Shown here: one piece after another, positions 12,057 to 64,000 of the stretch | Layout: every line of letters starts with the position of its first letter | How positions within the stretch are numbered: position 1 is the first letter of the stretch | Assembly: GCA_039621445.1 (NCBI GenBank) | Contig: CP154954.1 | Span: 49,641,847-49,705,846, forward strand | Reading direction: 5' to 3' | Source: Euglena gracilis | Taxonomy: Eukaryota | DNA: 64,000 bases | The notes under the pieces: model-generated | What the model was told of the DNA's origin: nothing | Seen by the model: the letters and a program-made list of their open reading frames with translations, nothing else | Database searches by the model: none | Translations under genes and position numbers: made by a program

Positions 12057-14126
12057 TAAAGTGATCAGCAGAAACTGTACAAACCGGCTCAAAATGCATA
12101 TCCATGATTTCTTCAAATTAAATCATCTCAAAGAGGAAAACAATGGTTCCATTTGACTGTGCCTAGATCTGAATTCAAAAAAGGTCGCAAAAAAAGTTGA
12201 AAATCATCCACAAACCTGACAAATTAAGATCACTTCTGGAATTGCAATTCCGAACAGGTTTGAGCAGGTTTTCCCAAATCACCTCCCCCAGTAAAATACC
12301 TCGACCAGACTAAAGCCGTCAGGATCAATGCCGCCCCCACAAGTGTGAGTCGTCGGGCAGGGGGGGGGGGATATGCACCGTGCAGTTTTTGCAGTTTTTT
12401 TTGCAGTTTTGCGTTTTTGGTTTTTTGCAGTTTTTTTTTGCAGTTTTTTGCAGTTTTTTCTTCCCTCAAAAAAGCACATGTGCATTTTTTTTGCAGTTTT
12501 TCGGTTTTTGAAAAAGTTGAAAACACATTTTTTGATGTGCTCCAAGGCTGGAGGATTTCAAAAAGAACATCAATGCAATTCCATCACATGTTTTGTACAG
12601 CCACAAAATTCTTCGGGGCATTTTTTTTCTTTTGAACACAACGGGTTGCATAGCTGGCACTTCGTTTAAAACGAAGTCAAAAAAAACACGTTTTTTAAAA
12701 AAAACATGTTTTTTTTTAAAAAAAACAAAAAAAACGCCATTGAGGGTCCAGGGCAAAAAAAATTTTTGCCTTTGATTTTAGGTTTTTTTGCCCATCCTCG
12801 GTCAGAGAAAGACACCAAATTTGGGATGTTTCAAGTTAGTTTGGAATGGTTTCAAGCCAAAATGGCAGAAAAATGCCCTATTTTGACCATTCTTGTTGAA
12901 GACAACCAAAAGTATTGGTTTTGAGCTAAGATTGGTTCACCCTTGCGATCAAAGGCAAAATTTGGACCATCATTTTCCCCTTTGTTTTTTTTGCCGTTTT
13001 TTTTGCCCGTTTTTTTAATAAAAAAACAAAAAAAAACGTTTTTTTAAATAAATAAAAAACGCCAGCTATGACGGGTTGGGAGAGAGCCCAAAAGGGCATC
13101 CACCGTTGTTCCACCTAGCGAATTTGTGGTTCGCAAAACAGCCTCAAATTCTTGTACGGTGGGGGGTTCAGGCATCTGAGCATCCATCAGGTTCACAGCA
13201 CGCTTCATGGCTGTGGAACACATCGAAAGGATATTGGCGGCTGAAATAAATACGAATGGTTTTTGTTTCATTTTCCGTTCACTGGTGCCCATAGGGGTAA
13301 CTGTGAACGTTAAATGGTTGTTCCTATGGTCACCCGTGAACACCTTTGAGTGTTCATGGGTACCATTGCATACAATAACTTAGTCACTGCCCCCGCCCCC
13401 CCCCCCCCCCGGGGGGTGACTGGTTTTTTCAGAGTGACTGACTGGTTTTTGGCCCGGACCCCCTCCGGGGGGTCGGCAAAAAATCGTACCGGGGGGGGTC
13501 GGAAAACAAAAGTGACCCGGCGCCTAAGGGGGATCGGCACACCCCTCCCCCCCCCCCCCCCCCCCCTTTTCAGACCCCCTCGCCACGCCATGTCAGGCCC
13601 GCCAAAGAAAATTTTCTTGGCAAACCCCCTCTAGCCGGAAACCTCGCCACGGCGTGCCGACCCCCCTCCGGAATTTTTTTTGGCCTTTTTTTCATGTTTT
13701 GGGTCAAATTTCCTTTGGATTCCAGAGTGGCCGCCCCCCCCCCCCGGGGGGGGGGGGGTAGTGACTGATGGCTTCCCGAAAAAAGTGACTGACTGGTTTT
13801 TTTGAAAAGTGGAGTGACTGGGGGGTCGGTAAAAACTTGTATGTACCCTTGGAGGTACCCGTGAACGCCCAAAAGTGCACCCATGAACGCTAAAAACACC
13901 AAAAATAGCCCGGTAGGCATCTGGTCGGAAAAAATTGCCTACATTAGGGTAACCCGTGACTTTGTTAAACGGTTTTAAACTGGAAACGGGATTCAACCCC
14001 CGTTTTCGCACGGGGAATCATGTTTGAATCCCGTTTCCGCTTATAGAACGCGAGGCGTAAGCAATGAGGAGCACACCAACTGTCTGCCTCCATTTTTTCC
14101 CCTCACGGGACCCACCAGTAGCATTA

Positions 14127-14735: not shown

Positions 14736-15517
14736 TAAGGTTGTTTCGATTAATCGATTTTTTGATTAATCGTTCGCCACCCCTTGATTAATCGTTCATT
14801 CGTCCAGGGGGTGATTAATCGAAATAATCGGCCTTCCCAAGGAAACCATTGAAAAAACAGTGCAGGAAAACACTTGGGAGTGATCATTTTGGAGGCTCTG
14901 TCTCACAGATATGTCACTGTGTGTTGCTTTCTTTTGGGGGAGACCCATTAGGAAACAAACGGGATAGATTCATACGCACAGACATCAGAGCACGGATGGA
15001 AGAGTCATCCAGCTTAGCGCGCAAGTCGCTATGCAGGAGACTCTGGTGAGAAAAACTGCGCTCAACACAAGCATCTGAAACACCAAGGCTGAAAATTTCA
15101 ATTGCAACTTTGGCCAAAATCGGCACATGCAAAGCAACCTCCTCCCAAAATTGCACAGGCTGAGGAAGTGGCCGAGCGGTGATGGCCAGAGGGCCATTTC
15201 GGGTCACCCATTGCCCCACCTCCCGTTTCAGCCGTGGCAAAATACCATCCTCATGACCCATTTTTTTCAGTAAGGGAAGGCAGTGTGAGGTCGGAGCGGT
15301 GTTCAGCTTAGCCCTGTTGGCTGATGTCCAGGAAGAAAGGTCAGATGTTGGTTTTTAAGGAAAAACATTATTCTTCAAGGGAAATGAAACGTTTGTTGGT
15401 CATCATAATGCTGGGAACCCAAAGGGGGCATTAATCGTTCGGTAATCGTTCGCCACCCCCCAATTAATCGGCATTAATCGTTCGGTGCCGTCGATTAAGA
15501 TTAATCGTCCAACCTTA
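14736..15517 (-). mobile_element. Internally deleted hAT transposon
   Basis: TIR TAAGGTTG..CGATTAATC / GATTAATCG..CAACCTTA, subterminal TTAATCG repeats, flanking direct repeat CACCCCC (7 bp exact, in a homopolymer); contains a hATC-coding fragment. Confidence 0.85.
14914..15261 (-). pseudogene. hAT transposase C-terminal dimerisation domain fragment
   Basis: PVQFWEE..VPILAKVAIEIFSLGVSDACVERSFS..R.KL matches the hATC (Dimer_Tnp_hAT) signature; the rest of the transposase is missing. Confidence 0.9.
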
Positions 15518-22700: not shown

Positions 22701-25700
22701 TCAGTCCAAGTTTTTTGGGGCATTTTGTGGGTCAGATTGTTTTGTGACCGCCTAGGCAGAGGGGGGGGGATGAGGGGGGGTCGGGTGGGGGGGGGGGCGC
22801 CACAGCATGCGTTGTGCCACGGCGCCAGGGGGGGGGATGGCGTCCGGCAAAATGGCGCCATCTATACAAACAAGCCATTCACCTCCAAATGTTGAGTCTC
22901 AAATCATTTTCTGAACATCCACTTAGGCGGCCGGATTTGCACTCAAGTTTTTTTATGATTTGCGCACTTGCACTGCAGTATTCAAGCCGGTTCAGTCACC
23001 CCGTCGGCACCAGTTCCAAGTGTCGTAACAGCCGGTGTGTGCCTCTCACCTGTTTGATGTACGAGAGCACCAGTCTCACCCTCGGCCCTATTCACGTCAC
23101 TCGGTAAGCAGCATGCACACCAAACCACCGGGAGTTAATGCCCTACAACACAGGGGTGTAACAGTTCATTAACTGTCTTCCGTGTGTCAGGGTACAGGGT
23201 CCCAGAAATTTCGTAAAATGGTCGAATTTGCGCAAATGAGCCCATTTCAAAGAAGAAACCCTTAAGTGCAAATCCGGCCGCCTAAGATCCAGCAAAAAAT
23301 CAACCAATGTAACCAATATGGTTTTTGCATTTTCAGAACGTCGCAGGGCAAAAAAACACCCCATTCAATCAAGTGACCACCCCAGAATGACATGAAAAAT
23401 GAAAAATTAAACACAATAGTGGGGAACACAGGGGGGAACACAAACGTGTTTTTTTTACATTTTTGGATTTTGGCAAAATTTGCTTTTTCTTGGCATTTTT
23501 GGGATTTTTTTGTTGAATATCTGAAAAATATCTGATCCAAAAAATTCCTCATTTTTTGTCCGATTTTCCGCCGACGCTTAAAATTTTGTCAAAAAATTTC
23601 CACTTTTGTAAATAATTGGCATTGCATTTTTTGTCAACAAAATGCTTATTTTTATGCAAAATGAGAAATTTTCCCCGGCGGAGCCGAAAATTCCTTTCCA
23701 ATGTACATCCTGGGAGATCCTAAAGAATTTTGTATGCAATTTGCGGTTTTTTTTTGTGGGTTTTTTTGTGGTTTTTCGGTGGGTTTTTTTTGTTTTTTTT
23801 TGTGTTGTTTTGCGTCGTGTTTTTTTGGGGGGTTCCATGTGTTTCCCCCCTGGTAAACAGCGTGGAAAAGATTTCAAATGAACAATGTAAGAGTGGGATC
23901 GAATGTGTAGGTGCCACTGACCTCCCTTCAATGGTTGGGTTTTGGTGCGGGTGGGTGGTGTATCACACCGAGAGGCCCCGAAACAGTTTTGAGCGGAGAG
24001 AGTGAAGCAAAGGGCTTTAGAATGGAAAGAAAGAGTGCGACACCAACCGTCACCATCATGTTCATGCAGGGTTGCTTGCATTCCTTGAATCTGTTCTGTC
24101 ATATCCCCCCCCCCGATCTTGTCCCATACCTTGGCCCACAACAGTCCCGGTGTGGGACAAGATCGGGGACAACAAGGGGGTCAACGAATTTCCTTTTGTG
24201 GACCCTTCCTTAACCCAGGCCATTGGCCGGGCATGAGACAAGATTGGGGACAAGATCAAGATCGGGGGGGGGGATGATAATGAGGAAGGACCCCAAGATA
24301 GTTCTGTCTCAAATTAGTCCCAGACCCTCCCCCATTGTTCCTGACCTGAACTCTCAACCAGTTGACCCCCCACCCCAAATGGCCCAAATTTCATTGATTT
24401 TTCATCGAAAACCCCCCAAAAATTCAGTGCCTTTGGCGCTGGAACCCTGCCCCTCTCTGGGAAGTCAGCCGGTCCGAGTGACTAGCGAAGTCAACTGTGG
24501 GGGGGGGGGTCCAGCAGCCCCAACCCTCCCCAGTTGACAAACAAAGTCAACCGAACCGGGGGCGGTCCGAAAATGAAGTCAACCCAACTATCTACCTCCA
24601 AGGATGGCTGGAGACAAAGACCTATCAGAGGCAACTGCGCTTCCATAAGCCTGCAGTTTTCTTTCAAGACCAGAGGCGTCCAAAAAATGCAATTGGAACA
24701 AAAATTGAGAGCAGCAATTCCAAATTTAAGGCCTGTTTTTTTGAAAGAAAGCATTTTCTTCTTTTTCAAAAATATACGGAACATATTATCCCTGGGTATA
24801 GTATTTTGTGCATTTTTTTGCAACGTTCATGTTTCCTTTTTTTGCAAGTTTTTTTTGCAACTATGCGCAAAACCAAAAGAAACAAATGAATTTTTACATT
24901 TTTATATCTTTCAAATGTGAACTCCTGCGAAAGGAGACCAGGCAGAGGGGAGGGGTTGCAGCGCGCGCCGGGAGGTCCAGTGGGGCAGAACATGCGGTGC
25001 TTGCATTGTGGCGTGGGCCAAAATTTGGTCATTTTCTTCGGAAAAATGTTGATGTTTTGGCCATTCTTCGGGTCGGGATGGTGATTTTTCAAGGAAACAT
25101 ACAGGAAAAATAGTTTTAATTTTCGGGCTATTTTACGAGGGGTCAAAATTTTTTGAAACCCCCCAGCAAGGCTGGCAGTAAAAAGAATTTTTTTTTGAAA
25201 AAAGAACACAAAAAAATCCAACAAGGGTTGGAGGAATATTCTTTTGAATGGGAATTTTGGTAGGGTTTTCCCATCGGCCATCACATACACAGCGATTTCC
25301 AGGGGGATTTTGCCTGTGCCCAGGCTGGGCCGCCGGGCTGCCGGGACGTGCCTCCGGGTCGCCGCTGGGCAGGAGAAAAAGTCCCTTTTCAGAAAAGCCA
25401 TCTTTTATGGCATTTTTTAAAATTCAAATCCCGACCCGGCTCGGCAGCTTGGGGTCGGCCTGACCTCCCAGCCTGGGCGCAGCTGGATCTGGTGGAGCAT
25501 GCTGTCCTGGCTGTTGGCCTGATGGCCCAGCCCGGCCTGACTTCCTTGCATCCCACCCTAAAAGGGGCTGCTGCCGGGGGGGGGGGGTTCCCATCCCTCC
25601 TAGTTTAGTCGTCCTCTGCCAAGGAGCTGCATATTTGAAGACCAAAAAAAATCTTCATTTTTGCTGGGCTTTTTGAAAAACTCAACATCCAGTATTGTTG

Positions 25701-28700
25701 AGCACCACACGTTCAGGGCAGACATTTATCAAGCCAAAACAAAATTTGTTGTTTGGGCGACTGGGACCAACAGACTGGATCAAAATGTGAACAGCAGTTT
25801 CAACCGAAATTGCAGCGGTGTGACGCTTGGCTTTCAGTTGTTGGGAGAGGGGGAGGGGACAGGTGGAAAACAACAGGGCAGGGATGGGATGCAGTAGCCT
25901 GAGAAACAATATTGGTTGAAACCCATGTTCAGCAGCATTTTGCACGCAGAAATATAGGGGGTGATAGCTTCGGAACCAGTCGTACACCTGCAGTGCGGTA
26001 TTGTGTCTCTTCCCTCCCCCACGTACATAACATCCCTGATACCCTCAAAACTCCCCTGGTGTATTTATGGGGAGGTCCAATAAAGGCAAAATCCCCTGGA
26101 CTGGTCACCAGCGGCCTTGGACGGGTCACTGGAGGCCAAAAAAAGTGCGATTGGGAGGGAGGGTGTTACTTAATTGGGGTGGCATTTATGTCGGGAGTGG
26201 TTCCATATCTATTAAAATATGCTGTGTGGTACAGTGTCATGTGGTGTGAGGAAGCTGGACGATGCAAACTTAAAAACAGGAGGGGCTCGTTGCTGGGTTT
26301 TGCAATGCGAGTACCCCTGGGCCAAGGTGCTGGACACCGGCCTGCGGCAGGCCTTCTATGAGCTGTCCCATCCAGGCTGAATTTTGAAGGTGAGGCCGAC
26401 CCCGCTCCGGGAGGGGGGGTAATGCCTGGCTGCCAGACACTCAAAGGCCCTCCGACATCCCCCTCTGCCGGGGGTTGGACATACTCAGCCTAGTCCCATC
26501 CAGACCAGCAGCTGCACTCTTATGTCCTGAACAATGCCCACACAGGCGCTTTGGTTGGCTCTGAAGGGGGAGGGTTGCACCGGTTATTGCTTAAGGGTTC
26601 GCAGTGCCCCGGGGGGGGGGGGGTGAATTCAGGGGGGAGAAAATTGCACCGTGCAATTTTTGCAGTTTTGTGCAATTTTCGATTTTCCTGAAATGTGCAA
26701 TTTTTGGCAATTTTGTGCAATTAATTGCACATGGCCCAGGATATTTTGTTTTGGAAAATGTCAGTTTTTGATGCCTTTGAGAGCTTACCGGTTTTTTTTT
26801 TGCTGGGAAACTGATGTGCGTAGTGAAAATTTCCGTTCAAAGGCTGTTTATTGTTGGTTTACTCAGTGTGCGAACCCTAACTTGAGTCCCCTGCCCAAGT
26901 GTCTTCCAACAGAAAAGGAAAAGGAAAAAGGAAGAAAAAAGGAGTTTTTTTTATTTTTTTTGGAAAACCGTGCAATACGTTTTTTTTGGTTTTCGTGGTG
27001 CATGGTCCCTGGCATTCTTGTGAAGTCTGTCCATGCCTCTACACGTCGTCGGGTTTTCAAATTTCTCAAGGCGCAAGGTCGCCCCCTGACCCTCCCCCCC
27101 AAAGTAGGGGGCACCCGCTGGAACTCTTGCAGGGTTTTCCCCCTCAAGAAAAGGACCCTGTTACTGTGCAGGGACGCTTTTAAATGGTGGTGTGAGCATC
27201 TTTTGGAAATGAAAAATTTTTTAGCATCGGAAGTACAGCGCATGACACGTTGCGTCTTCCGCTGGATGATGAAAAAATTCAGGATGTCCACTATGATGCT
27301 GTTCAATGGTGACATTGATGGCCGCTTTGTTTGACCGCGGCGGACTGCTGCCCAACAGGCTTCACCTGTTTTGCTGTGCCGCGCTGTCATTTTTGGATGT
27401 TCTTGACAAAGGAACAAGATGAGTCTCCAAGTAGGTGCATGTGTGCATGCTCGTTACAAGGGATCCAATGCAATCTCCAAGTATGTGCAATTTTGTGCAA
27501 TTTTGTGCAATTTTGTGCACTTTTGTGCAATTTTTTTTGCACTGCAATTTTTGACCTTCCGATGTGCAATTTCTCCCCCCCCCTGCTGAACTGCAGCTAG
27601 TCCAAATCTGCCCAGTGGGAATTCCAGTGGACTCCCCGGCGGGGGTCCGCCAGCAGGGCTAGCTAGTGGAAAGATTGAAAAAGATTGAATTTTTTTTCAA
27701 AACTTGCCAAAAATGGCCATATTTGGCCATGTTTGGGATTTTTTTTTGGAACATTTAAAACCTGATGTCCACCTCGGCACACAGCGCCGAAAATTTTTTT
27801 CCAGTCAGGGGGGACCCCCGGACACCGGCATTAAGTGAGCGTTGGTTTTGTACAGAGGGGTCCCTCCTCCCTCGGAGTAAGAGGCGGGGTCCAACCCCCC
27901 CCCCACCCCCCCCCTCATTTTCTTCTTGCTCCAAGAAAACATCCAAGGCTGGGGTCGAGTGGAATACCAAAGCAAATAGAAATAAGGGAACAGTGAGAGG
28001 ACACATCCATTTTGATTGTGTGATCAGTTCTGAGTCGGACGTTCACAACGCTGGAGAGCCTTTGTGACCTGGTCAGGGCCCAGATCCCGAAGTACGAGCT
28101 CGACCAGCTGTTTTTGGCGAAGGATGAGATCGCCAAAACCCTGAAAACCGAGCTGGAGCATGAAATGAATCAGTTTGGCTACACGATCGTGCAGACCCTC
28201 ATCACGGACATAGACCCTGCTCCGCTTTATGCTTGAAACCACAACCTCATCAGCTCATCGTCTATGCTTTGGAAATTCTGTCGGTGTGAGTTGATTTCCA
28301 CCATCGTCATAAAGCGCTCGTTTAGAGAAAACAAAAGCAAACAAACGCATACGCACATATCCAACCTCCGCATGTGACCAAGTGTGCCCGAGTCAACCTG
28401 TGCTTTTGCTGCGAAAGCGCATTAAAAAACTCCTCCAAAAGGGAAGCACTGTTTCTTTTGATTTGACTTTAACATGCCACGTTGACGTCGTGTACTGTGG
28501 CATTTTTTTTTCTTTTTCAATCTGGCAAGCGATTTCCAGAATACCAAGCATGCTTCAGAATCAGACGCAACGGTGAAGCGTGCTGGACAGGCTTCTTCAA
28601 AGCAGTCTCCTCTCCTCCAACTTAGCAACAAACTGTTACCGGCTGACAGGGATAAGATCAGACAGACCGCAGGAGAGTTCGACAGACCTGTCCTATATGG

Positions 28701-31634
28701 TGGCCAGATGTTTCTTTTAAAGGCTGGCGACCCGTGGGCTAAGTTACCCCCCCCCCCACCAGAATGCTGTAGTTACCCCATAGCACAAGGCACATTAGTT
28801 TGGTTCAAAAGGGGTGTTGTTATCATAGAGGGGGGGAAGGGGGGTTTCCAGAAAAAAAAGAAAGATGAGTTGGGGGATGGCCACAGGCCCCCTCTCCCCA
28901 CCACCCAGGGTATTAAGTGAGCGTTGGTTTTGTCCAGGATGGAAGGGGTCAAACTATTGGGGTCCATATCCCCCTTTCCCCTTTCAGACCAAGGGTGAGG
29001 GGGTGTCCGGGACCGACCCAGAAACCAAAATTATTTTTCTTTGGCACTTCGTGCCGGTGAAGATGAAATTTTGAGTGTACGGTTGGCCGATACTTTTTTC
29101 AGCAAAAAAGTGCGCGAGAACGCCACTTTTGGGCCTGTTTGTCAAGGGCCGAATTATTCCGGTGCATTCCACTAAAAAATTTTTGCCCAGGGGAAGTGGG
29201 GTCCGACCCTCCCCTCCAGGGGGAGGGAGAGGGGTCCAGACCACCCCGCCTCCCCTCCTCTCTGCCACTTAAATACCCTGCCCCCACCGTCCGTCACCCC
29301 CCCCCCTGTGCTGGCCCGGAGGGCATGGAATTCGAGACTGTGGTCACTGCTGCAATGTGCGAAAACGTTGTACACAGAACTTCCCAATTTTTTCCTGTTG
29401 CCATCTTGCCTATGTTGATTACTCTCTGGGAAACTGCAGCAAAAACAATAAAACCTTCTTTCAAATATTGTTCACAAATTACGTGATCTGACGCTCCATG
29501 AAGACTCTTCCAGGTTACCAAAAGCCGTTATTTATAACTCATTGTTGGCCTGGATGCAAAGCAAACTTGAGTGCAAGGACTCCATAGATTGTCAAATGAA
29601 GCCTGGGGCTATGAATGACATCAACGCTGCCCAGCGATTGCGTGTCGCCTTCATACTTCCTTTCCTCTGTTCGTTGCCGAGTCGGCTACTTGAATTTTTC
29701 CAACATTTCTGAATCTTGCAGCAGTTTCCAAAATCGTTCAGTTACGACTCTGCCCTGTCTCTGTCAGTGAAAGGCAGTATGGCAACGGCTCATGACAAGG
29801 CGGAGGCGGAGAAGTTGGCAATTGTCAAAGCAGCTGAGGCGGATGCCGAGAGCAAACGGCTCTCTAAGGGAGAGGGCCAAGGGATGGCAACACTATCCTC
29901 TACATCAGCAGAATAGTGGAAGTGCAGTGGAATTGGGGCCTCTTTCCTGTTTCCCGAACAACCCCCCCCCCCCGAAGAGCTTCCCCCGCCTACCATGATC
30001 CAAGGTGGCCACTTATTTTAAGGAAGCTTCCCATATCGTGGCCGAAGTTTATTCAAATTTGCATGATTCTGAAAAGAGTTTTACATGTTCTTTCGTATTC
30101 CCAGGAAACCGTTTTGTGCCGTTTCTTATGTTTACACTCCCCTGAACCTACGAAAAGAATTTTTAAGATTTACAAAGTGCAAAGTTGTGTCCACAAGTCC
30201 ACACTTTGTGCTGCTCTTGTATCAAAAGGTCCTCCCCCTCGTTGGGCGTTGGCCTGGCCGAGCAACGCAAGGCGATCATTATGGGCCTCCATGACTCCAT
30301 TCGAATGTTCACAGCCCGACAGAGGTACCCCACAGACGTTACCCCTTCATTTACAGGACAGCTGTGTGTCCTTTGTGTTTTTCTTCGTAGTTGAGGAGAT
30401 GCCTCTCCCCCACACCAACATCACGCAGTCGGAGGTGATGGAGCTGCTCCTCATGAATCAGTACTTCGACACCCTGAAGGAGATGACCGCTTCCTCTCAC
30501 GCGAAGACAATCTTTGTTCCCCACGACCCGGTCGCAGGCCGGGCCATCCCCTGGAGTTGTGTGATACCGCTGCTGGTCCGTTGCTCACTCCAAAAGTGTT
30601 GGACAGGGTGGTGCATGAACCCCCACCCCAAGACAAAGCATCTAATTGAGAGCATGCATCCATTTGAGGGCCCCTGGGGGTTGCTGAGCTTGGGTTAGAA
30701 TTCGGGCTGCCTTGCTAATTCCCTCCGGGGGCTGTGCAGGCTGGGCCGTACCAAATGGGACAATTGCCAAAAAATCACCTGCAGAACACAGCTTTGAAAA
30801 GAAAATGAGCGTCTGGTGACTCCCCAAAACCCCCTGAAAACCCTCAAATAAACTTTTTTTTTAACCCTTTTCGACCATTTCCCCATGGTTTCACTCAGCA
30901 AAAGGGGGCTGGATGTTGGGCTGGTGGTACCCCGGAGGGGGGTGCTGTGCGGCTGGACCGGGCCAAAATCGACCTCTGGGGTCTGCAAAACCTTAGAGAG
31001 CCAATGACCCATACCTTTTAATGAGGTGCCAGCACCGGTGGCATTGGTAGCCCAGCGATGATTCATTCTTCAAATGAACTTCAGATGAAGGGGTTTTCTC
31101 TGAAATGCGAATTCCCTCCACTAAAACCACGCGCCAGAGAGAGAAGGGATACAGAAAACCTCGCACTGTCCCCCAGACGCCCCAGATGGAATTACAGCAT
31201 TTTTCACACCGAATATTGCGTATGCCGTATCCTGGGGTGCTTGCTGGCGATGGGCTTTTTTAGCCTGCCCAAACGAGGGCATTTTCATTTATTTCATTTC
31301 GTCGAAAAAAGTGCTCAAACACAGTCAAAATTGGTGAAATGAAATGAGCGTTTTTCTCCTTACATGGTTTCCGTGCATATTTTTTTGACTGAAATTTCAG
31401 TCCAGCTGCATTTGGATGATTTCCTTTTGGGCTGTAGCCCGGTCAAGCCTGGCAGTCACCTGGCCTCCTCCCCGCCGTCCTCCGCTGTGCTAACTGTATT
31501 CCCCATCCTTCAATTTGCGGGAAAAACAGCCTGACACATCACACCACATGTGGTGGCTCGCCCTCGCCCAGGGCATCGGGCAGCAGATACGACAGGGTTT
31601 GCTGGAGGCTGGTCAAAGCTTTAAAATGGACTGA
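19797..31634 (+). CDS. SPFH/band-7 protein, hypersensitive-induced-response (HIR)-like, ~285 aa. Exons approx. 19797-19991, 22299-22320, 26325-26369, 26498-26529, 28066-28218, 28564-28584, 29611-29643, 29779-29865, 30245-30313, 30393-30530, 31572-31634
   Basis: Joined translation MGCVYCVEQSEVAIVESWGKY...ETKTADNVFVT/VICSISYQ/VLDTGLRQAFYELSH/PDQQLHSYVL/DLVRAQIPK...GYTIVQTLITDIDP/DATVKRA/MNDINAAQRLR/MATAHDKAEAEK...SKRLS/GVGLAEQRKAII.../...QYFDTLKE...IFVPHDP/GIGQQIRQGLLE is colinear with plant HIR proteins. The exons total 858 nt in frame; several junctions are ambiguous by a few nt. Confidence 0.9.
20608..20679 (+). pseudogene. Degenerate tRNA (Thr-AGT-like) or tRNA-derived SINE head in intron 1
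   Basis: A box AGCTCAGTGG, T-arm GTGGG-TTCGAGC-CCCAC, AGT in the anticodon position; acceptor stem has 2 mismatches and U8 is replaced by A. Confidence 0.6.
21045..22473. repeat. Long inverted repeat pair (arms ~21045-21170 and ~22341-22473)
   Basis: TTAGCAGGGGCACCGTTACAATGAAACGG versus CCGTTTCATTGTAACGGCGCCCCTGCTAA; related mini-hairpins at ~20103-20180 and 21301-21349. Confidence 0.85.
22025..22155 (+). pseudogene. PHD-finger-like fragment, probably transposon-derived
   Basis: VRCEVCSVWWHWKCV...WMCEGC matches the CxxC-x4-HxxC...W.CxxC pattern; isolated inside intron 1. Confidence 0.5.
26370..26497 (+). other. 128-nt nonconventional intron equivalent to a MITE with a perfect 8-bp TSD
   Basis: GTCCCATC (26365-72) CAGGCTGA...TCAGCCTA GTCCCATC (26493-500); removal restores ELSHPDQQLHSYV. 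Confidence 0.85.
26630..27585 (+). mobile_element. hAT-derived element with a transposase remnant, inside SPFH intron 4
   Basis: TIR CAGGGGGGAGAAAATTGCAC / GTGCAATTTCTCCCCCCCCCTG, TGTGCAATTT subterminal repeats, internal frame with PPKVGGTRWNS (hAT TRW motif). Confidence 0.75.
28585..29610 (+). other. Textbook euglenid nonconventional intron
   Basis: T|GGACAGGCTTC...GAAGCCTGGGGCT|A: CAG at +4..+6, CTG at -8..-6, extended pairing; joins VKRA to MNDIN. Confidence 0.9.
28906..29280. mobile_element. hAT-type MITE nested in a nonconventional intron
   Basis: TIR CAGGGTATTAAGTG / CACTTAAATACCCTG; flanks CCACCACC / CCCCCACC (7/8). Confidence 0.85.
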
Positions 31635-34456
31635 ACTCTGTCCCCGACCACTGCTGTCTGGGGGCCTCCCCAGTCAGGGCGTCGCTGAAGCCAGAGAAGG
31701 GTACCAACTGCCTGCCAGAAGGCAGCCCCCGAAGCGACTACCTGGAAGGTGTCAAAGTTGATGTGGGCCAAAGTTGGACGAAAATGCACCTGGCACACAT
31801 CATTGGTTGATTCCCAGTTGTTTTTTTCCTCGCAGTTTTCGAGCCTGGCTGGACCTTGGCCCCATTCCGATCGGGACAGCCAGAAATTTTTCCAGCCAGC
31901 CCGAATTTCCTTTCCTCTGAACTTCCTCTGAGCTGGATCCTTCACTGGAGGGTTACCCCCTCAAATAATACCCCCTGGGGTATTTTTTTTCCGCCCGATG
32001 TCCCAGCCGAGGAGGAGGGTATTATTGACCCCAAAATTTTCGAAATTTTTCGAAGTCCCATAGGACCCAAAATAGCACCCAAACCCCCCCCTTTGGTCAT
32101 CTATTTTACTTTCTCATGAAATTTAGCATTTTTGGAGGCCAGATGGTCCAGAGAAATCGATTTATCGTCAAAGATTAATATTTTTCTACGTACATTTTCA
32201 GGTCAAAATCCGGGGTGTCGGCCCGAAATTGGGGGGGGGGGGAATTAAATCGGTCACCGAAGTCCCGCCCCGGGGGGGGGTATTATTTGGGGGGGGGGGT
32301 TTATTCAAAGAGGTTCTTTCCCCAGCTTTTGACCTCCTCCTCACCCCGCCCACCATGCCCACCCTGCCAATCGCACGTGTCTTGCCCGCCTCCCCGCAAT
32401 GTACAGTACCTGGCTCAGGCCTTCCCCTGCAAACCATCACCTAGGTTAAAGTTTGTGTTTCTTGCTTCCTGGGGGGTTCGAAATCAGTTTGGTTGCCCAG
32501 CCGGATTCTTAAGGTTCTCAGGGGGTTGGATGGGTGAGTTCACCCTTGCCTTGAGGGTGTCCACATTGGATGGCTGGTAAAAGATGCAAACCTTGGTTGG
32601 GTGTGGGAGAAAGTTCCCCAGGATCTCAATTATCATTGAGCTGACCCCCCCCCCCTTCGCCAGCGTCTTGGTCTCGAGGCAACGTGGAACCTAGGGAAAT
32701 ATATGTTTCATTCTCCATCTGCTTTCTTCGAGTGAAATTATGGGGGCGGCCCTGTCACTGGCCTGTGTCTTCTTCCACTGGCCTACACCCACCCCTCAGG
32801 CACTGCCTTTGAGCAGAGGTTCTGTAACATATGCCTGGGCCTCTGAACCCCGCACCGCGCATCCGCACCTTCACTGGCGTGCCCTTTTCTTGACCCAGCG
32901 TTTTCATTTGCATTTCCATCCCAGAAAAAAGCTATTGCACAAGGACAGCTGAAAGTACCGAGGAATCTTATTTTATCGAGACATTGCTATTTTCTTTGGA
33001 GGCACTGGCTGCAGAAGGTTTCATCATCCCCGAGAGCCCTCTGTCGACCCCGCGACAAAAGGATATTCCTTTGGGGATGGGCCATTGCCTAGTACCCAAA
33101 ATACGGCTTGATTTGGATCAGAATGCGTTTCATTTTCTGATCACCGCTCATATTTCTCGGGCAAATGACAAGAGCAAGCCCCCCTCCCCACCCTCAACCT
33201 AGTTGGAGGAGATCTGGAACCCACTTGGCGGGATTGGCCATTTTTTTTTCCTGCGGAAGGGTTCCCCCCACCCATGCCAGTGCATGGAGACCGGGGAGTC
33301 CAATTGTGTCCAGAACGACTCCATCTCCGGAGAAAATGCCTGATCATAATTGGTGGATGATCACCAAAGCATGAGGTGATGAATTTGGCGAAGTTCCAGA
33401 GTGCTCAGTGTGGCAGCTGATGACTGTGGTTTCAGCGCGATTTGGTTGCCATACTGTTGCTTGTACAATTTATTTTGTTTATTATATTATATATTATATG
33501 TTGTATATTAAAAGGCGCACCAAATTCAAGTCTTTCACATTAGCCAATAACGACCAAAAAAGCCCAAAATGGCCATATTCCCCCACCAATGGGCAATTTT
33601 TGCCAACCTGGGGTCCCCTTTCCCCCTTGTCTGGCGACCCCCCCCCCCCCCCACCCAGAGGCCATCGGTTTTCAGAGAAATATTGTGCCAAATTGGCCAT
33701 TTCCCCATTTTCACGCCCCAAATTGGCCATTTGGCCTGGGAAAAATTTATCCCCCCAAAATGGGCCATTTTGGTCCAAAAGGTGCTGATTGTTCCCCCTC
33801 CCAGGTTGGCCATTGTCCAAGGCCGCCCAAGGGGTGGCCAATCTGGGGGGGGTGAGGGTCAATTGTTTCCAGTGTTCATCTCCGACTGCGGGACAATCTG
33901 GTAAGGTTTCAGTTCGCCCTAAGGCCCCCCAAGGGGGGGGGATGGTTTGGACCCCTGGGGGGGGGTCCAAACCATCCCCCCCACCAGCCCAGAAATATGC
34001 AGGCTGGTAGTGTCCTGCCCCCCGGGGGGGGGCAGGATACTACCTGCGACGGTATTGCTTGGGGTTACTGAAGGGGTTGTGTATATAGTGTGCCAAAAGT
34101 TTGTGTACCCCCTCGGGTTTTGTTGGGGGGGGGACTCAACCCCAAGCCCCAAAGCCCATGTTACCGATGGGCTGTGGTGATGGTGTGCGCACACACCCCA
34201 GTATTGACCACCTCGCCCCCTTGCCGGGCTGGGGTTTGAGTGCCAAACAAAAGGGCCACAGATTGAAAGGTTTTGCTCTTGCACAATTGGCCTCAGATTT
34301 GCACAAAGCCCTGTGTGTGGCAGAGGTTGGTGCTGCTGTGCGGCAGGTCTGTGCAAGCATTTACACCCCATCACCACAGCCCATGGGTAACATAGGCTTT
34401 GGGGTTGAGTGCGCGCCCACAAAACTCGAGGGGGTATAAAATTTTTTTGGCACACT

Positions 34457-34989: not shown

Positions 34990-43152
<8,163 letters not shown>

Positions 43153-45108: not shown

Positions 45109-45113
45109 GGTTT

Positions 45114-51821: not shown

Positions 51822-51913
51822 TCAGGCCGCGGCCCAACCAGGGCCAAATTTGGCTTTTTTTGGTTGGGCCGCGGCCGGTACACAGCGAACCGGACAGTCA
51901 TGGGAGGTTGGGC

Positions 51914-52196
51914 CAGGCTTCTTTTTAAGTTCCCTGCCCCCCCCCCCCCCCCGGGGGGTGGGTGGGTGGGTCCGGGCCGGACCCCCTCCCGGGGGGGGGG
52001 GGTCCCGCGCCGGAGGCGCTGGGTATACCTTTTCGGCGCGAAGCGCAGAAAATTTTTGAAAATTACCTTTAACGGGCCCGATTTTGGGGGGGTCCCCGGA
52101 CCCCCCAACCCCCACCGGGTGGGTTCCGCCCCACCCTGCGTGGGGGGGGGGGACCCCCCCCCCTCCCCCCCCCCTGGGGTCTTAAAAAGAAGCCTG
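51914..52196. mobile_element. hAT-type MITE, TIR CAGGCTTCTTTTTAAG
   Basis: Perfect 16-bp TIR; flanks GGTTGGGC / GGTTTGGC (7/8); nested in a CCGCGG-motif element spanning ~51823-52460. Confidence 0.9.
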
Positions 52197-59800: not shown

Positions 59801-62800
59801 AGGGAATCTTTTCAATCAGTCTTTGTCCAAGCCTGAGACATTACAGCTTCTACACCCTCAGAAAACCCAACCCTGAGACATTACAACAATTACATCTCCG
59901 TTGAATGTTCTATTGATTTTGGGAACCTTTCCTGGAGATGGAGCAAAATATGCGCAGATGTCTGGCAGATGAATTGAGAAATGGGCCCGCAGAGCAGCGT
60001 CCCAGCTTCGAGAGCACTCCCCGGCAGTGTGAACATATTTGGCAGGAAGGCACAATTCTTTGGACAGGTATATCCCGGAGGGGGGGGGAGGGGTTATCGC
60101 TGGTAAGCCCTAGTCGTGGCCTCAGCAGCAGCCGCAGCGGCGGCCGCCTCGCCGGCCTTTGCCTCCAGGGCGGCTGCTGTGGCCTCCAGCTCCGTCTCCT
60201 TCGCCACCGACAGGGCTGTGTGCCACTCTCCCACCGGACTCCGAAGCCCCCCCCCCCCCCGTGGCACACCAATGGCCAGCCGACGGTGGCCGTGTGAACT
60301 GTGGAATGAGGGGGATTGGTGTGGTGGTCGGGACCAGTGATGGTGGTCAGGACCCCCCCCTCGGGGGTCGGGGTTCAGACCTAAACATGGCCCCTGCACT
60401 TAAACATAGCCAAAAATGATCTATTTCCAATCAAAATCCCCCGAGTCGACCAAAAATGCAATCTTGAGGGCTTTTTTTGGGCGAAAATTTGTCCCAAAAA
60501 TTCGGCTCAAAGCACCGAAAAGAAAAATTGACATTTTTTGGGTTCCCGGTGCCTTGTGCTATGGAGTGCATAGCACCCCCCGCCCGAGGGGGGGTGTGAA
60601 TGGGCTTGCCGCCATCTACCCTGGCTGCCAGCTGCTGCGCCTTCCCCTCCGCCGCCTCCAGCTCCGCCTGCCGGGTGGCCACTTGCGCCAGTGCCTCCTC
60701 CGCCTGCAGCTGCTGCGCCGTTTTGCCGCCCGCTGCTCCGTGGGTGGGGGGGGGGACGGCGGGGTGCCCACCAATGACACCGGTGCCATCCCCCCGTTGG
60801 CGACACACTCATGGGTCAGGAGGGGAGAACCGTACCGCCGCTGCCACTGAGCCTGGAACGATTGAGGGGGGGGGTGACTGTTTACATCCAACGAAGACAA
60901 TGAACGAATGGCATGGTGTCTATGACACCTCCTCCCTTGCCAACCATAATTGCCCACAACTTTGGCGTGTCAAGGACAAGTGGGGCACCGAACATTTTGT
61001 GTGTCAGCACAAAATTTGTGGATCCCCTCTGGATCACCGCAAAAATATGTGCCTCACAGCGACATTATCGAAAATTCTCTGCGCTTCATCGAGCAGAATG
61101 AGGAAAACGGAAATGAAGTGAAAACTGGAGCAACAGTCGGGACACCAACGCCTCCTGCTGGGTAGTCAGAGCCTTCTCCTTCTCCGCCAACGCCTCTTCC
61201 TGTGTGTGGTATGGGGAAGGTGTGCGGGGGGGGGGGGACTTTGTGGGACTGCATTCACCCTCCCTTCCAGGGTCCCCCTGGGGAAAAGCATTCAATGCGA
61301 AAGAATTCCTGCACGCTTGTACAATCCATGGACCATTTTGAACTCATTCGAGGAGTGATATTGTCCAGGAGTGCTCCCAACTGCACAGAACTGTGTGGTG
61401 GACGACCCCTTCCAGCTGGAACTTGGTGATCTGATGCTAATAAAATGTTGAACATGGTTTTCAATCAAGGTGAGGTACGACGATGATCAGCAGACAAGAG
61501 TTGAAAATTATGGCTTTTCAAGCACTGCGCTTCCAATCTGTTGGGACCAGGCATTTGCATTTGGGGGGGGGGTAGCCAGTACCCCCCAGGACCCGGGGGG
61601 GTGGGTACTGGCTAGCCAATCGGCTAGACACTGGAAAAAATGGACTAGCTAGACCCCCCCCCCTGGGGGGGTCCGGGGGTCCCCCGAACTGGAAAAAAAA
61701 TTTTCCTCCGGCGCTGCGCGCCAGAGGAAAAATGAGGTTTTTAATAGGTTTTTGGCTGATTTTGTTCCAAAAATTAGCTGCAGTCCAGCCCCCCCCCCCC
61801 CCCGGGGTACTGCAATCCCTTAAGCAAATGCCTGGTTGGGACCCCCACCAATCTCCCCCCACAAAAAGCTCCCGCCGCACGCGTCCCCCAGCGAAGCGCG
61901 GCGCGCCGCTCCTCCAGTGCCCTCAGTGCGGCGGCGTGCTGCGCCTCCGCCCCCGCTACTGCGGCCTCCCGCGCCGCAAGCGCCGCCGCCCGTTCCACGG
62001 CCGCCGCCTCGCCCGCCATGGTCGCTGCGGCGGCCCCCACTTGCCGCTCCCGCAGCGCTTGGGCCTCCGCCTGTGCCGGCCGCCCCGTGTCACCGCCGGG
62101 GATGGGGGCTCACAAGGCCCCGGGTCGGCCTCCAGGAGGATCGATGCAGCGATGTGGACCACGTTGACTTCGATGGCGGGTTTCCCGGCTGATCCACCGC
62201 GCAGGATTCCAAGGGCGTTGACCCAACCTCATCGAGCCAATTCCTGACAACCCGAACACTAAAGCGGCTCAGTGCGAATGGGGTGGTTGGTGCATGACAC
62301 CTGGTTGTGGGTGTGGGGGTGGGTGAGTGGGTGTGGGTGTGCGCGTGTGCAGGTGTGGGTGTGCGCGCTTGTTACTCGGTTGGGCCCAACGCCGCAGCAG
62401 GCGGCACAGCACGGGGCGGGGCAGGGCAGCCATCTGCGACCGTAGCTCTTGGAGGGCGGCTTCCTTCCCCTCCACCACCAGCAGGGTCCCTCCGGCAAAG
62501 GGGAACCCAAACCACCCCCACCAGGGGTTTTTCTTGAGACCGGGGGGAGGGCCTCCCCACCCACCCACCCCCTGGGGAGGCCCCCCGGAGGGGGGGGCTG
62601 GGGGACCCACCACTTTCCCCGAAAAAATTGCTAAAATGCTAAAAATAGCACTTTTTTCAAAAATTTTCGGTGCCTTCGGCCCCGAGAAGTGAATGCCCCC
62701 CAGGGGGGCCCCACAGAGGCGCTCGGCTGGACCCACCCACACTACCCCCCCCTCCCCCCCAGGGGTTCAAGACTAAAAAACACCCCTGACCCCCACCCAT

Positions 62801-64000
62801 AGGACGACACCCACACGGACCCGCGGTGGGGGGCCCCGGGCTCCGCCTGGAGGTCCAGCAACTGCTGCTGCTTCGCCTGCAGTTGTCGGCAGGGCGGGAG
62901 GGAGGGGGCCGGAAGGGGGCCCACCCGTTAGTGTAGGCTGCCCTCCATAGCCTGGCTGGGTCTCCCGGGCCTTCTGGTCCTCCTGGGACGCCTGCACCTG
63001 CGCCTGCAGTGCTGCGTGCAAACCGGCAGCGGATTTTGTGTTCCGCCTCCGTTCGGGTGGTATTCGGGTGACAAAGCCATCTGTGAATACCCACCATCTC
63101 CTCCTTCTGATGGACTGTACCAAAACTGGTTGTAATGTCACCAAACGTGTTGGCCAGGTAAGAAATCGCGGTGGTCGTTCCATCAAACAGCCATTAAACA
63201 ATATGTGTCAGCTGAAACAATGAGAACTGGTATTCCCATTTTAGCACAAGCATGCCGCCCTGTCTGCATTAGAGCAATGCAAGGCAAAAACGGAAACAAA
63301 GGGCGCTGCTGGGTTGGGCGCGATCTGCTCCTGCAAGGCAGCGGTGTCCCGGGTGTGCGTCTCCACTGCCCTTCGCTCCTCTAACTGCTGCTGTGCCAAA
63401 CCAGTGCCTTGTCACCTTCCTGCCCACTCAAAAAATGTCCCTCAAATCACAACCCAGAGCGGGGGCGGGTTAATGTTGCTGTGCATCGATTTCGGGTCAA
63501 AACCCATCGGGAGCAGGCTTCTTTTTAAGACCCGGGGGGGGGGGAGGGGGGTACCACCCCAGCCACCCAGCCCGGCATAGGAACCCCCAAAATTGGGCCG
63601 TCTGAGGGCATTTCCTAAAGGATTTTCGGCACTTCGCGCCAAAACCCATGCCTGGGCCTCTGGCCCAGGACTCCCCCCGCCCCCCCAGGGCCGGCACTGG
63701 ACCCCCCCCCTATGGGGGGTCTTCTGACTTAAAAAGAAGCTGGTCGGGAGATTTGGGAAAAGCAATTTCGGCAGACTTCCATCGTCACACTCATTCCACC
63801 CGGGCTTAAATATCTCCCCAGCAAGGGCAGACTCGTTGGCCGCATCGGCTGTATTTCAACGCGTGGGGCCACACGTTGCTTCTTTCCCATCAAGGTCTGG
63901 GGCACCGGCAAGGCCGCGGTCTGCCTCTCCCACCGCTCCGCCTCAAGCCGCAGCGCCTCCTCCCGCTCCCGCAGCGCCGCCGCCCGGCCCGCCAGCTCGG
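53801..64000 (-). CDS. 3' part of a multi-exon Ala/Glu/Gln-rich coiled-coil protein with a Pro-rich region and acidic C-terminal tail; function unknown, 5' end outside the window
   Basis: GC-rich exon islands, e.g. ELAGRAAALREREEALR (~63910-64000), AAAVERAAALAAREAA (~61890-62080), QLQAEEALAQVATRQAELEAA (~60620-60740), LAQQEAELAAREELL (~59589-59640), AREREAADRAAAAEAQ (~58760-58868), VEEPEDGADGDGE (~55097-55200), DGWDLDIEDDDDEKDGK (54796-54846, AG/GT-bounded), DD* (53801-53809). Not all junctions are resolved. Confidence 0.75.
53881..54730. mobile_element. TA-flanked MITE with a second TA-flanked MITE nested at 53970-54401, in the last intron of the minus-strand gene
   Basis: Outer TA|CCCCC..CTATGTCCAA...TTGGACATAGGGAGGGGG|TA; inner TA|CATCTCTCTAAGG...CCTTAAAGAGATG|TA. 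Confidence 0.8.
58869..59588 (-). other. Nonconventional intron on the minus strand
   Basis: AC|GGGCAG...CTGCGGCC|G: CAG at +4, CTG at -8; joins EELLT to AREREAADR in frame. Confidence 0.7.
61548..61834. mobile_element. hAT-type MITE with a perfect 8-bp TSD
   Basis: GTTGGGAC|CAGGCATTTGC...GCAAATGCCTG|GTTGGGAC. Confidence 0.9.
62522..62788. mobile_element. hAT-type MITE with a perfect 8-bp TSD
   Basis: ACCCCCAC|CAGGGGT...ACCCCTG|ACCCCCAC. Confidence 0.88.
63514..63742. mobile_element. hAT-type MITE, TIR CAGGCTTCTTTTTAAG (second copy)
   Basis: ATCGGGAG|CAGGCTTCTTTTTAAG...CTTAAAAAGAAGCTG|GTCGGGAG (7/8). Confidence 0.88.

What the first reader, a model, noticed from the sequence alone, without database searches (positions are those of the whole stretch)
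28585..29610. A spliced intron shares its ends with a free MITE family in the same window
The intron stem begins CAGGCTTCTTCAAAG and ends ATGAAGCCTG. Free MITEs at 51914-52196 and 63514-63742 have the TIR CAGGCTTCTTTTTAAG with 7/8 TSD matches. The first 10 nt on the left and 8 nt on the right are identical, and the intron flanks (GTGCTGGA / GGGCTATG) retain a partial TSD. Inference: this is an older exonic insertion of the same TIR lineage, now fixed as an intron.
Basis: partly seen in the sequence, partly recalled or inferred. Interest (0 to 1): 0.78.

Follow-up and report, generated by a model that had tools for sequence, protein, structure and literature searches.

The report
Euglenid nonconventional intron with transposon-like ends
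This is an ordinary Euglena-type nonconventional intron in a stomatin-family gene whose paired ends resemble those of small mobile elements nearby, which supports, but does not prove, the old idea that such introns began as transposon insertions.

Summary
28585-29610 is a 1026-nt nonconventional (NC) intron in an SPFH/Band_7 gene. CAGGCTTC lies at +4..+11 and GAAGCCTG at -13..-6, which is the published Euglena geometry: 3-nt spacer, CAG...CTG, 5-nt spacer. The elements at 51914-52196 and 63514-63742 are real MITEs with TIR CAGGCTTCTTTTTAAG and 8-bp target-site duplications (TSDs) matching 7/8.

Both intron arms are reciprocal best matches to that TIR among 2117 CAG-started 14-mers (12/14 and 11/14). 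I estimate window-wide p at about 0.01-0.05.

Three points weaken the lineage claim:
- The claimed partial TSD (4/8) is at chance level.
- The outer intron has no internal homology to the MITEs.
- The outer intron is single-copy.

So shared lineage is plausible but unproven.

The window carries stronger evidence for the general idea:
- At least seven CAGG-ended MITEs have 8-bp TSDs, plus one ambiguous case.
- A hAT transposase fragment is present.
- One such MITE is nested inside this intron.
- A neighbouring intron of the same gene (26370-26497) is a 120-nt CAGGCTGA element flanked by a perfect 8-bp TSD.

The 3+5 spacer rule adds up to one 8-bp TSD. The MITE origin itself is already a published hypothesis.

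The parts
28585..29610 (+). Nonconventional intron (1026 nt) of the SPFH/Band_7 gene. It can slide by 3 nt (GCT repeat). This register gives the 3-nt spacer GGA and the 5-nt spacer GGGCT.
   Evidence: stem 8/8 in this register only; the MFE fold pairs +4..+11 with -6..-13. RNA depth drops inside.
28588..28601 (+). 5' arm CAGGCTTCTTCAAA. It matches the MITE TIR at 11/14, and the first 10 bases are identical.
29592..29605 (+). 3' arm, whose reverse complement reads CAGGCTTCATTTGA. It matches the MITE TIR at 12/14, and the first 8 bases are identical.
28564..28584 (+). 21-nt microexon (DATVKRA) directly upstream of the intron
28906..29280 (.). MITE nested inside the intron (375 nt). TIR CAGGGTATT(T)AAGTG; TSD CCACCACC/CCCCCACC (7/8) at 28898-28905 and 29281-29288. 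It carries the superfamily's central palindrome at 29044-29055.
   Evidence: score against MITE1 24 versus 10.5+-1.5, 0 of 200 shuffles; this bin is about 27 times single-copy depth.
28705..28871 (.). Putative second nested element. Its left end CAGATGTTTCTTTTAAAGG is supported by a second copy at 15342-15360. Its right end is uncertain.
   Evidence: 2 matches against 0.03 expected; pair I18.
51914..52196 (.). Free MITE 1 (283 nt). TIR CAGGCTTCTTTTTAAG is perfect on both ends. TSD lies at 51906-51913 and 52197-52204 (7/8).
63514..63742 (.). Free MITE 2 (229 nt), same family in inverted orientation. The right TIR has a 1-nt deletion. TSD lies at 63506-63513 and 63743-63750 (7/8).
61548..61834 (.). 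Free MITE with TIR CAGGCATTTGC and perfect 8-bp TSD GTTGGGAC. It has the same central palindrome.
62522..62788 (.). Free MITE with TIR CAGGGGT(T/G)TTTT and perfect 8-bp TSD ACCCCCAC
41231..41453 (.). Free MITE with TIR CAGGGCA and TSD CACCCATG/CACCCGTG (7/8)
26370..26497 (+). Sister NC intron of the same gene (128 nt). It is the 120-nt element 26373-26492 (CAGGCTGA...TCAGCCTA) plus one copy of a perfect 8-bp TSD, GTCCCATC, at 26365-26372 and 26493-26500.
   Evidence: of 12 possible registers, the best stem (7/8) is in the 3/5 register.
26536..28071 (+). NC intron with CAC/GTG at +4..+6 and -8..-6. RNA reads confirm the junction.
   Evidence: loose ends at 26536 (14 reads) and 28072 (14 reads)..
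29649..29786 (+). NC intron with CAT/ATG termini. The stem is 11/12 in the 3/5 register.
   Evidence: I chose this junction after the fact; it uses a synonymous Ala codon.
12649..13070 (.). Free MITE with CATAGCTGGC termini and perfect 8-bp TSD ACGGGTTG
14917..15354 (-). Fragment of a hAT transposase (C-terminal dimerisation domain)
   Evidence: PF05699, E 1.5e-9; 204 relatives; 19 of the 20 longer relatives tried match the window, all in this stretch and nowhere else.

Best explanation
28585-29610 is a working euglenid nonconventional intron.

**Mechanism.** Its RNA ends pair (CAGGCTTC with GAAGCCTG). The pairing puts the two cut sites 3 nt upstream of CAG and 5 nt downstream of CTG, as in the published Euglena splicing code. 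Removal restores ...VKRA|MNDI....

**Origin (inferred).** Most likely it began as an insertion into the exon of a non-autonomous DNA transposon of the CAGG-ended, 8-bp-TSD (hAT-like) superfamily that is common in this window. Removing the element plus 3+5 = 8 flanking bases takes out exactly one TSD copy. Such an insertion is therefore removable without a scar from the moment it lands. Later the unconstrained sites decayed and at least one further MITE inserted inside it.

**Family assignment.** Descent from the very CAGGCTTCTTTTTAAG family at 51914 and 63514 is the best single candidate. I put it at only about 0.4. Descent from the superfamily I put at about 0.65.

**Shown versus inferred.** Shown: the intron's anatomy, its pairing, its depletion from RNA, the MITEs and their TSDs, the nested MITE, and the sister intron with an intact TSD. 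Inferred: the ancestry of this particular intron.
For: **Anatomy matches the published code.**
- CAG at +4..+6 and CTG at -8..-6, with an A as first base of the acceptor exon. None of the 4 possible registers gives GT/GC-AG borders (code from PMC12501133, passages and section 5).
- The MFE fold of the whole intron pairs +4..+11 with -6..-13. The end duplex scores -21.2 kcal/mol against -9.5+-2.9 for shuffles, and 1 of 1000 shuffles reaches it.

**Removal from RNA.**
- Depth falls to 0.5 or less in the inner bin, against 10-16 beside it.
- Spliced-leader-like loose ends at 19771 and 34981 mark the organism as a euglenid.

**Match to the MITE TIR.** The arms are reciprocal best matches at 12/14 and 11/14 of 2117 sites.

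**The superfamily is real.**
- Of 159 CAG..CTG pairs with TIR at least 11/14, 5 have a TSD of at least 7/8. Eight shifted controls average 0.38.
- Three more elements were found by eye: MITE2, the nested MITE and intron 26370-26497.
- The central palindrome GCRCTTCGYGCC occurs 10 times against 0.67 expected, including once inside this intron.
- A hAT dimerisation domain lies at 14917-15354.

**The sister intron** at 26370-26497 is visibly element plus perfect TSD.

**Literature.** A recently gained E. agilis gapC intron has eight-nucleotide direct repeats at its junctions (PMC4770533, passages).
Against: - The flanks match only 4/8, which is chance level (controls).
- The outer intron has no significant similarity to the MITE1 or MITE2 interiors. 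BLAST of the intron against the window finds no MITE.
- The outer parts are at single-copy depth (about 113-114) in DNA run X1.
- After removing the nested MITE and its TSD, and the putative second element, about 460 nt remain. The free copies are 229-283 nt.
- All nine elements tabulated that start with CAGG have C or G next. The shared CAGGC is therefore superfamily-level, and the pairing makes the right arm's first 8 bases dependent on the left arm's.
- The junction reads for this intron were not displayed.
- The sister intron ends in CTA, not CTG. That change blocked splicing in the published assay, and its removal from RNA was not shown here.
- A generic TIR+TSD scan without the CAG constraint showed no enrichment: 8 observed against 5 to 8 across six shifted controls.
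Confidence: 0.6

Rival explanations
1. Chance or convergence. The intron has no transposon ancestry that can be traced. Its stem is kept by selection for splicing, which needs CAG/CTG and favours a G+C-rich helix, and it happens to read CAGGCTTC.
For: - TSD match is only 4/8 (controls).
- No internal homology.
- The outer intron is single-copy.
- CAGG(C/G) is general among the elements here.
- My window-wide estimate for the arm matches is only about 0.01-0.05 after allowing for introns times families. I derived it from the counts.
Against: - Both arms continue to resemble the TIR beyond the paired 8 bases, at 3/6 and 4/6 of positions 9-14, although those positions do not pair with each other.
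- The arms are reciprocal best matches among 2117 sites.
- CAGGCTTC is over-represented, 8 against 2.07.
Confidence: 0.2
2. The intron derives from a different family of the same CAGG/8-bp-TSD superfamily, a sister of the 51914/63514 family rather than a member of it. A variant is a long non-autonomous element that shares only the transposase-binding ends.
For: - TIRs in the window diverge after CAGGC: CAGGCATTTGC, CAGGCTGAATTT and CAGGCTTCTTTTT.
- The residual length, about 460 nt, and the interior are unlike the 229-283-nt copies.
Against: The first 8-10 bases match this family and no other in the window.
Confidence: 0.15
3. The intron arose by another route, such as double-strand-break repair as proposed for the gapC intron, or change of an older intron. 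It only later collected MITE insertions inside.
For: - At least one MITE is clearly nested inside.
- Double-strand-break repair was the published reading of 8-nt junction repeats (PMC4770533, passages).
Against: - Free elements with the same ends carry 8-bp TSDs, the mark of transposase integration.
- The sister intron is element plus TSD with nothing else between.
Confidence: 0.05

Closest known systems
Nonconventional (NC) introns of euglenids (Milanowski et al. 2014, 2016; splicing code in Euglena, PNAS 2025, PMC12501133)
   Same: - No GT-AG borders.
- CAG at +4..+6 and CTG at -8..-6, with 3-nt and 5-nt spacers.
- Purine at the start of the acceptor exon.
- Pairing ends.
- A short direct repeat that makes the junction slidable.
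   Different: Nothing in the intron itself differs. What is added here is that its arms match the TIR of free, TSD-flanked MITEs in the same 64 kb, and that one such MITE is nested inside it.
hAT-superfamily non-autonomous elements (Ac/Ds type), including Ds acting as an intron in maize (Giroux et al. 1994, seen only in the reference list of PMC3935182)
   Same: - 8-bp TSD.
- Short TIRs starting CAGG. From memory, the Ac/Ds ends start CAGGG/TAGGG and the hAT terminal consensus is YARNG.
- A hAT transposase fragment lies in the window.
   Different: - No autonomous element with these TIRs was found here.
- CAGGC departs from YARNG at the fifth base.
- Removal from RNA would be by the euglenid NC pathway and exact, not by cryptic spliceosomal sites.
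Introner elements and MITE-derived non-canonical introns (Micromonas, dinoflagellates such as Amoebophrya, Fritillaria), as reviewed in Mob DNA 2024 (PMC11282704, passages)
   Same: A DNA transposon with TIR and TSD lands in an exon and is removed from the RNA, with the TSD supplying part of what is cut out.
   Different: - Introners are many near-identical copies, removed by the spliceosome, with 3-5-nt TSDs.
- This intron is single-copy and diverged, and its TSD would be 8 bp.
- The removal pathway is the unidentified NC one.

Membership tests
Euglenid nonconventional introns | No GT/GC-AG borders in any register compatible with the mRNA | tested here: met
   The four registers begin GC, CT, TG and GG, and end GG, GG, GC and CT.
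Euglenid nonconventional introns | CAG at +4..+6 and CTG at -8..-6 (3-nt and 5-nt spacers) | tested here: met
   Register 28585-29610 gives an 8/8 stem from +4/-6. The rule comes from PMC12501133.
Euglenid nonconventional introns | Intron ends pair and bring the splice sites together | tested here: met
   MFE fold of the whole intron. The end duplex scores -21.2 against -9.5+-2.9, and 1 of 1000 shuffles reaches it.
Euglenid nonconventional introns | Purine as first base of the acceptor exon | tested here: met
   A at 29611.
Euglenid nonconventional introns | Absent from mature mRNA | tested here: met
   - RNA depth is 0.5 or less inside, against 10-16 in the flanking bins.
- Homologous proteins are continuous across the junction.
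- The junction reads themselves were not among the rows shown.
Euglenid nonconventional introns | Excised as a full-length circle, after the conventional introns | not testable with these tools
hAT-like MITEs (the free elements) | 8-bp target-site duplication | tested here: met
   - 5 of 159 CAG..CTG pairs have TSD of at least 7/8, against 0.38 in controls.
- One of the five (51466-51804) has a palindromic TSD that may simply extend its TIR.
hAT-like MITEs (the free elements) | Terminal inverted repeats with the hAT-type end (YARNG, recalled from memory) | tested here: inconclusive
   CAGGG fits. CAGGC fits 4 of 5 positions.
hAT-like MITEs (the free elements) | A hAT transposase in the same genome whose element carries the same TIRs | tested here: inconclusive
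   Only a C-terminal fragment is present (PF05699). It is not linked to any TIR.
CAGGCTTCTTTTTAAG MITE family (as the source of the intron) | Family TIR at both ends | tested here: inconclusive
   11/14 and 12/14. These are reciprocal best matches but are not within 3 mismatches of the 16-mer.
CAGGCTTCTTTTTAAG MITE family (as the source of the intron) | 8-bp TSD at the flanks | tested here: not met
   4/8. About 16% of control pairs do as well.
CAGGCTTCTTTTTAAG MITE family (as the source of the intron) | Internal homology to family members | tested here: not met
   Outer left and right parts against the MITE1 and MITE2 interiors: the best of 8 tests was reached by 2 of 200 shuffles. The positive control, MITE1 against MITE2, was reached by 0 of 200.
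Introner elements | Many near-identical intronic copies in one genome | tested here: not met
   The outer intron bins are at single-copy depth, 113-114, in DNA run X1.

The most novel reading that the evidence does not exclude
The euglenid nonconventional splicing rule is a molecular ruler for one transposon superfamily.

- The fixed 3-nt and 5-nt spacers add up to the 8-bp TSD of CAGG-ended hAT-like MITEs. Every insertion of such an element into an exon is therefore born as a precisely removable intron.
- The Y|R preference reported at both junctions would then be one and the same TSD position (5|6) seen twice.
- The majority of Euglena introns would be the fossil record of these MITEs.
- Free copies such as 51914-52196 would be removed in the same way wherever they are transcribed.
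Probability: 0.45. Interest if true: 0.85.

Novelty: new member of a known kind. Interest (0 to 1): 0.6.

Why it matters
Where euglenid nonconventional introns come from, and what removes them, are still open questions. They make up 71.8% of introns in E. agilis (PMC12501133, section 5). A MITE origin has been proposed since 2013 from inverted repeats and short direct repeats alone.

**What this window adds.**
- Free MITEs with the same CAGG ends and 8-bp TSDs.
- An intron that is still element plus perfect TSD.
- An older intron whose arms match one MITE family.
- The arithmetic that 3+5 = 8.

**What becomes testable.** With a genome and RNA-seq, NC intron ends can be clustered with MITE TIRs and TSD-register repeats scored. 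With the published knock-in assay, a free MITE can be tested directly.

**What I did not find in print.** In the papers I could search I found neither the hAT/8-bp link nor a named free MITE family. Subscription journals and supplements were not visible.

Tried and rejected
- **Whole genome.** None is held.
- **Generic TIR+TSD scans without the CAG constraint**. The window is full of palindromic repeats. TSD of at least 7/8 was no commoner than in shifted controls: 15 against 8-17, and 8 against 5-8.
- **Metagenome scan for the 16-nt TIR.** Each locus had a single match, and none had a second TIR or G/C tracts, so these are chance hits.
- **hAT fragment.**
  - A word-based search among longer proteins found nothing.
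  - The exhaustive search found 204 relatives, mostly fragments.
  - Of the 20 longer ones run by tblastn, 19 matched the window, all within 14917-15354.
- **Read laying.**
  - In the second, the joints table was filled by DNA-contig joints, with 245 rows not shown. RNA junctions of the target intron and of 26370-26497 were therefore not seen.
  - The DNA joints I inspected sit at homopolymer tracts and say nothing.
  - No RNA holder was listed by the index.
- **ORF across simulated excision of each element.** Uninformative, because G+C-rich DNA is open in many frames.
- **Pfam beside the free MITEs.** No domains, so 'free' means only that no coding evidence was found.
- **Introns of the same gene that do not fit the 3/5 stem rule well.**
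  - 28219-28563 and 29866-30244 fit weakly.
  - The first intron (about 19996-24044) does not fit. The second (24063-26322) has CAGGG ends but spacers of 3+4. Both were judged by eye.
  - The DnaJ-gene intron 35402-37295 does not fit either.
- **Rfam.** Only a tRNA-like hit at 20608-20679. No tandem repeats in 28300-29900.
- **Supplementary files of PMC4770533.** Closed, so I could not check the ends of the gapC intron with the 8-nt repeat.
Full report
**What is there.**
- The window is euglenid nuclear DNA. RNA reads carry the loose end ATTTTTTTTC at 19771 (19 and 25 reads) and at 34981 (21 and 16 reads), which I read as trans-spliced leader ends. The Euglena leader sequence itself is recalled from memory.
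- A gene of the SPFH/Band_7 family (PF01145) runs on the + strand from 19797 to 31631 in about twelve exons.
Homologues read VKRAMNEINAAQRLRVA without a break.
- A GCT repeat lets the junction slide by 3 nt. Of the four registers, only 28585-29610 gives a stem from +4/-6 inward (8/8).

**The intron is an ordinary nonconventional intron.**
- In that register it begins with a 3-nt spacer (GGA) and then CAGGCTTC. It ends with GAAGCCTG and a 5-nt spacer (GGGCT). The next exon starts with a purine.
- This is the cis code defined experimentally for Euglena (PMC12501133; passages, section 5 in full).
- The MFE fold of all 1026 nt pairs +4..+11 with -6..-13. The 25-nt ends form a duplex of -21.2 kcal/mol against -9.5+-2.9 for shuffles, and 1 of 1000 shuffles reaches it.
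- RNA depth in the bin that lies wholly inside the intron (28616-29279) is 0.27+0.25 in X21 and 0+0 in X22. The flanking bins show 9.2+6.5 and 6.2+3.5.
- The joints table of that call was filled with DNA-contig rows, so I did not see the junction reads of this intron.
- The junction of the neighbouring intron 26536-28071 is directly supported by 14 and 14 loose-end reads.

**The free MITEs are real.**
- MITE1 (51914-52196) has a perfect 16-nt TIR and flanks matching 7/8. MITE2 (63514-63742) has one deleted base in its right TIR and flanks matching 7/8.
- They are homologous inside in opposite orientation: 65% over 237 nt, and score 54 against 13.6+-2.3, 0 of 200 shuffles.
- They belong to a wider superfamily.
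  - Among 159 CAG...CTG pairs with TIR of at least 11/14, five have an 8-bp flank match of at least 7/8. Eight shifted controls average 0.38.
  - The five are 41231-41453, 51466-51804, 51914-52196, 61548-61834 and 62522-62788.
  - The TSD of 51466-51804 is palindromic and could be part of its TIR.
  - MITE2, the nested element and the sister intron fail that filter, because of an indel or a CTA end. I found them by eye.
- Most share a central palindrome, GCRCTTCGYGCC, which gives 10 hits against 0.67 expected, and the same layout of G/C tracts.
- A fragment of a hAT transposase (PF05699, E 1.5e-9) lies at 14917-15354 on the minus strand.
- An 8-bp TSD and CAGG ends are what I recall for Ac/Ds-type hAT elements. 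That comparison is from memory.

**How good is the match between intron and MITE family?**
- The left arm matches the TIR at 11/14 and the right arm at 12/14. The arms match each other at only 10/14.
- Among 2117 CAG-started 14-mers in the window, the three intact MITE ends score 14/14 and the intron's right arm is next (12/14). Four sites score 11/14, one of them the left arm.
- Seen from the intron, the MITE ends are the unique best match for the right arm and tied best for the left.
The pairing makes the right arm's first 8 bases depend on the left arm's. CAGG(C/G) is shared by every element tabulated that starts with CAGG.
That is roughly 0.01-0.05 for the whole window, given some tens of introns and about eight families. 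This is my calculation from the counts, not a tool result.
- The result is suggestive, not decisive.

- The 'partial TSD' is 4/8. About 16% of control flank pairs reach that.
- Outside the arms, the outer intron (28602-28704 and 29289-29591) shows no significant similarity to the MITE interiors. The best of 8 tests was reached by 2 of 200 shuffles.
- BLAST of the intron against the window finds no MITE.
- The similarity of the whole interior to MITE1 (24 against 11.4+-1.6) comes from a nested element.
- In DNA run X1 the bins holding the outer intron are at single-copy depth (113-114). The inner bin is at about 3050.
- If the intron descends from this family it is old. At the level of decay seen in its free sites (about half changed), internal homology would no longer be detectable anyway.

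**Anatomy inside the intron.**
- 28906-29280 is a 375-nt MITE of the same superfamily. Its TIR is CAGGGTATT(T)AAGTG, its TSD is CCACCACC/CCCCCACC, and the central palindrome lies at 29044-29055.
- A second element probably starts at 28705. Its end CAGATGTTTCTTTTAAAGG has a relative at 15342-15360, giving 2 hits against 0.03 expected. I could not fix its right end.

**The stronger evidence is next door.**
- The intron between ...AFYELSHP and DQQLHSYVLNN is a 120-nt element (26373-26492, CAGGCTGA...TCAGCCTA). It is flanked by GTCCCATC on both sides, and those are the only two copies of that 8-mer in the window.
- Of 12 registers compatible with the mRNA, the best stem (7/8) is the one that cuts 3 nt before CAG and 5 nt after the right end. 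The cut therefore removes the element and exactly one TSD copy.
- Other introns of the gene keep the same 3/5 register with other end triplets:
  - CAC/GTG in 26536-28071 (7/8, junction confirmed by RNA).
  - CAT/ATG in 29649-29786 (11/12, junction chosen after the fact).
  - AGA/TCT in 30318-30411 (6.5/8).
- A free MITE with CAT ends and a perfect 8-bp TSD lies at 12649-13070.
- Not all introns fit. Two fit weakly, and three do not.
- One caution on the sister intron. It ends in CTA, a change that blocked splicing in the published assay, and I have no RNA junction for it.

**Mechanism proposed.** 3 + 5 = 8. An element with CAG...CTG ends that integrates with an 8-bp TSD meets every published cis requirement at once, and its removal restores the exon to the base.
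- The free MITEs here also have a purine at TSD position 6, which would be the first base of the acceptor exon. That holds in 8 of the 9 elements, counted by eye.
- The Y|R preference reported at both junctions (PMC11282704, passages) would follow, because both cuts fall at the same position of the two TSD copies.
- The eight-nucleotide junction repeat of a recently gained E. agilis gapC intron fits as well (PMC4770533, passages). Its authors read it as double-strand-break repair.
- These links are my inference.

**Comparison with what is known.**
- The MITE origin of NC introns has been proposed since 2013 (PMC3935182, passages).
- It is repeated in 2024 and 2025 as unresolved.
- TSD-like junction repeats are in print.
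- In six searches I found no paper that names a free MITE family with matching ends, a hAT link, or the 3+5 = 8 argument.
- Subscription papers were not searchable. That includes the 2021 circular-RNA paper, which I know only through citations.

**Verdict.**
I put transposon ancestry of the intron at the superfamily level at about 0.65, and membership of the very CAGGCTTCTTTTTAAG lineage at about 0.4.
- The intron itself is an ordinary member of a known kind. The value of the window is as concrete material for a long-standing hypothesis.

Noticed in passing
window 26365-26500: NC intron that is a 120-nt CAGGCTGA element with a perfect 8-bp TSD (GTCCCATC). Its right end is CTA instead of CTG, a change reported to block splicing in the published assay.
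   Followed up: partly
window 14917-15360 (-): hAT transposase C-terminal fragment. On its own strand the homology begins right after ...CATCTG plus 5 nt, which looks like the 3' end of an NC intron. That end (15342-15360) resembles the putative nested element end at 28705.
   Followed up: partly
window 28564-28584: 21-nt microexon (DATVKRA) lying between two introns.
   Followed up: partly
window 16000-19319, 26624-27951, 31936-32599: Stretches at 500 to 4000 times single-copy word depth in DNA run X1, which marks very abundant repeats. Two of them lie inside introns or the 3' UTR intron of the SPFH gene.
   Followed up: no
window 3528-3760 and 5399-5625: Two copies of another small element (ends GGTACTTGT, TIR 20/20) with 8-bp flank repeats matching 7/8 and 8/8.
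   Followed up: no
window 43480-46934 (-) and 49200-50567 (+): Long ORFs of 584 and 606 aa without clear domains, and an ORF with a reverse-transcriptase match below the curated cut-off (RVT_1, E 1.4e-5). Probably retroelement remains.
   Followed up: no
window 20608-20679 (+): tRNA-like sequence (Rfam RF00005, 31.5 bits) inside the first intron of the SPFH gene.
   Followed up: no
window 28157 and 30416: - RNA reads show A>G at 28157 in about a third of reads, while DNA run X1 shows none.
- At 30416 both RNA and X1 read T where the window has C.
These are most simply strain or allele differences; editing was not tested.
   Followed up: no
window 31674-32325 and 35402-37295: - A 3' UTR intron of the SPFH gene with a 7-nt junction repeat.
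- A DnaJ-gene intron whose ends do not fit the 3/5 stem rule.
Both are inferred from RNA loose ends that match the window only with 4 differences each.
   Followed up: partly
window 27356-27369 (+): Solo CAGGCTTCACCTGT inside intron 26536-28071. It matches the target intron's right arm at 11/14, and no partner end was found. Two other solo CAGGCTTC sites lie at 7337 and 10551 (-).
   Followed up: partly
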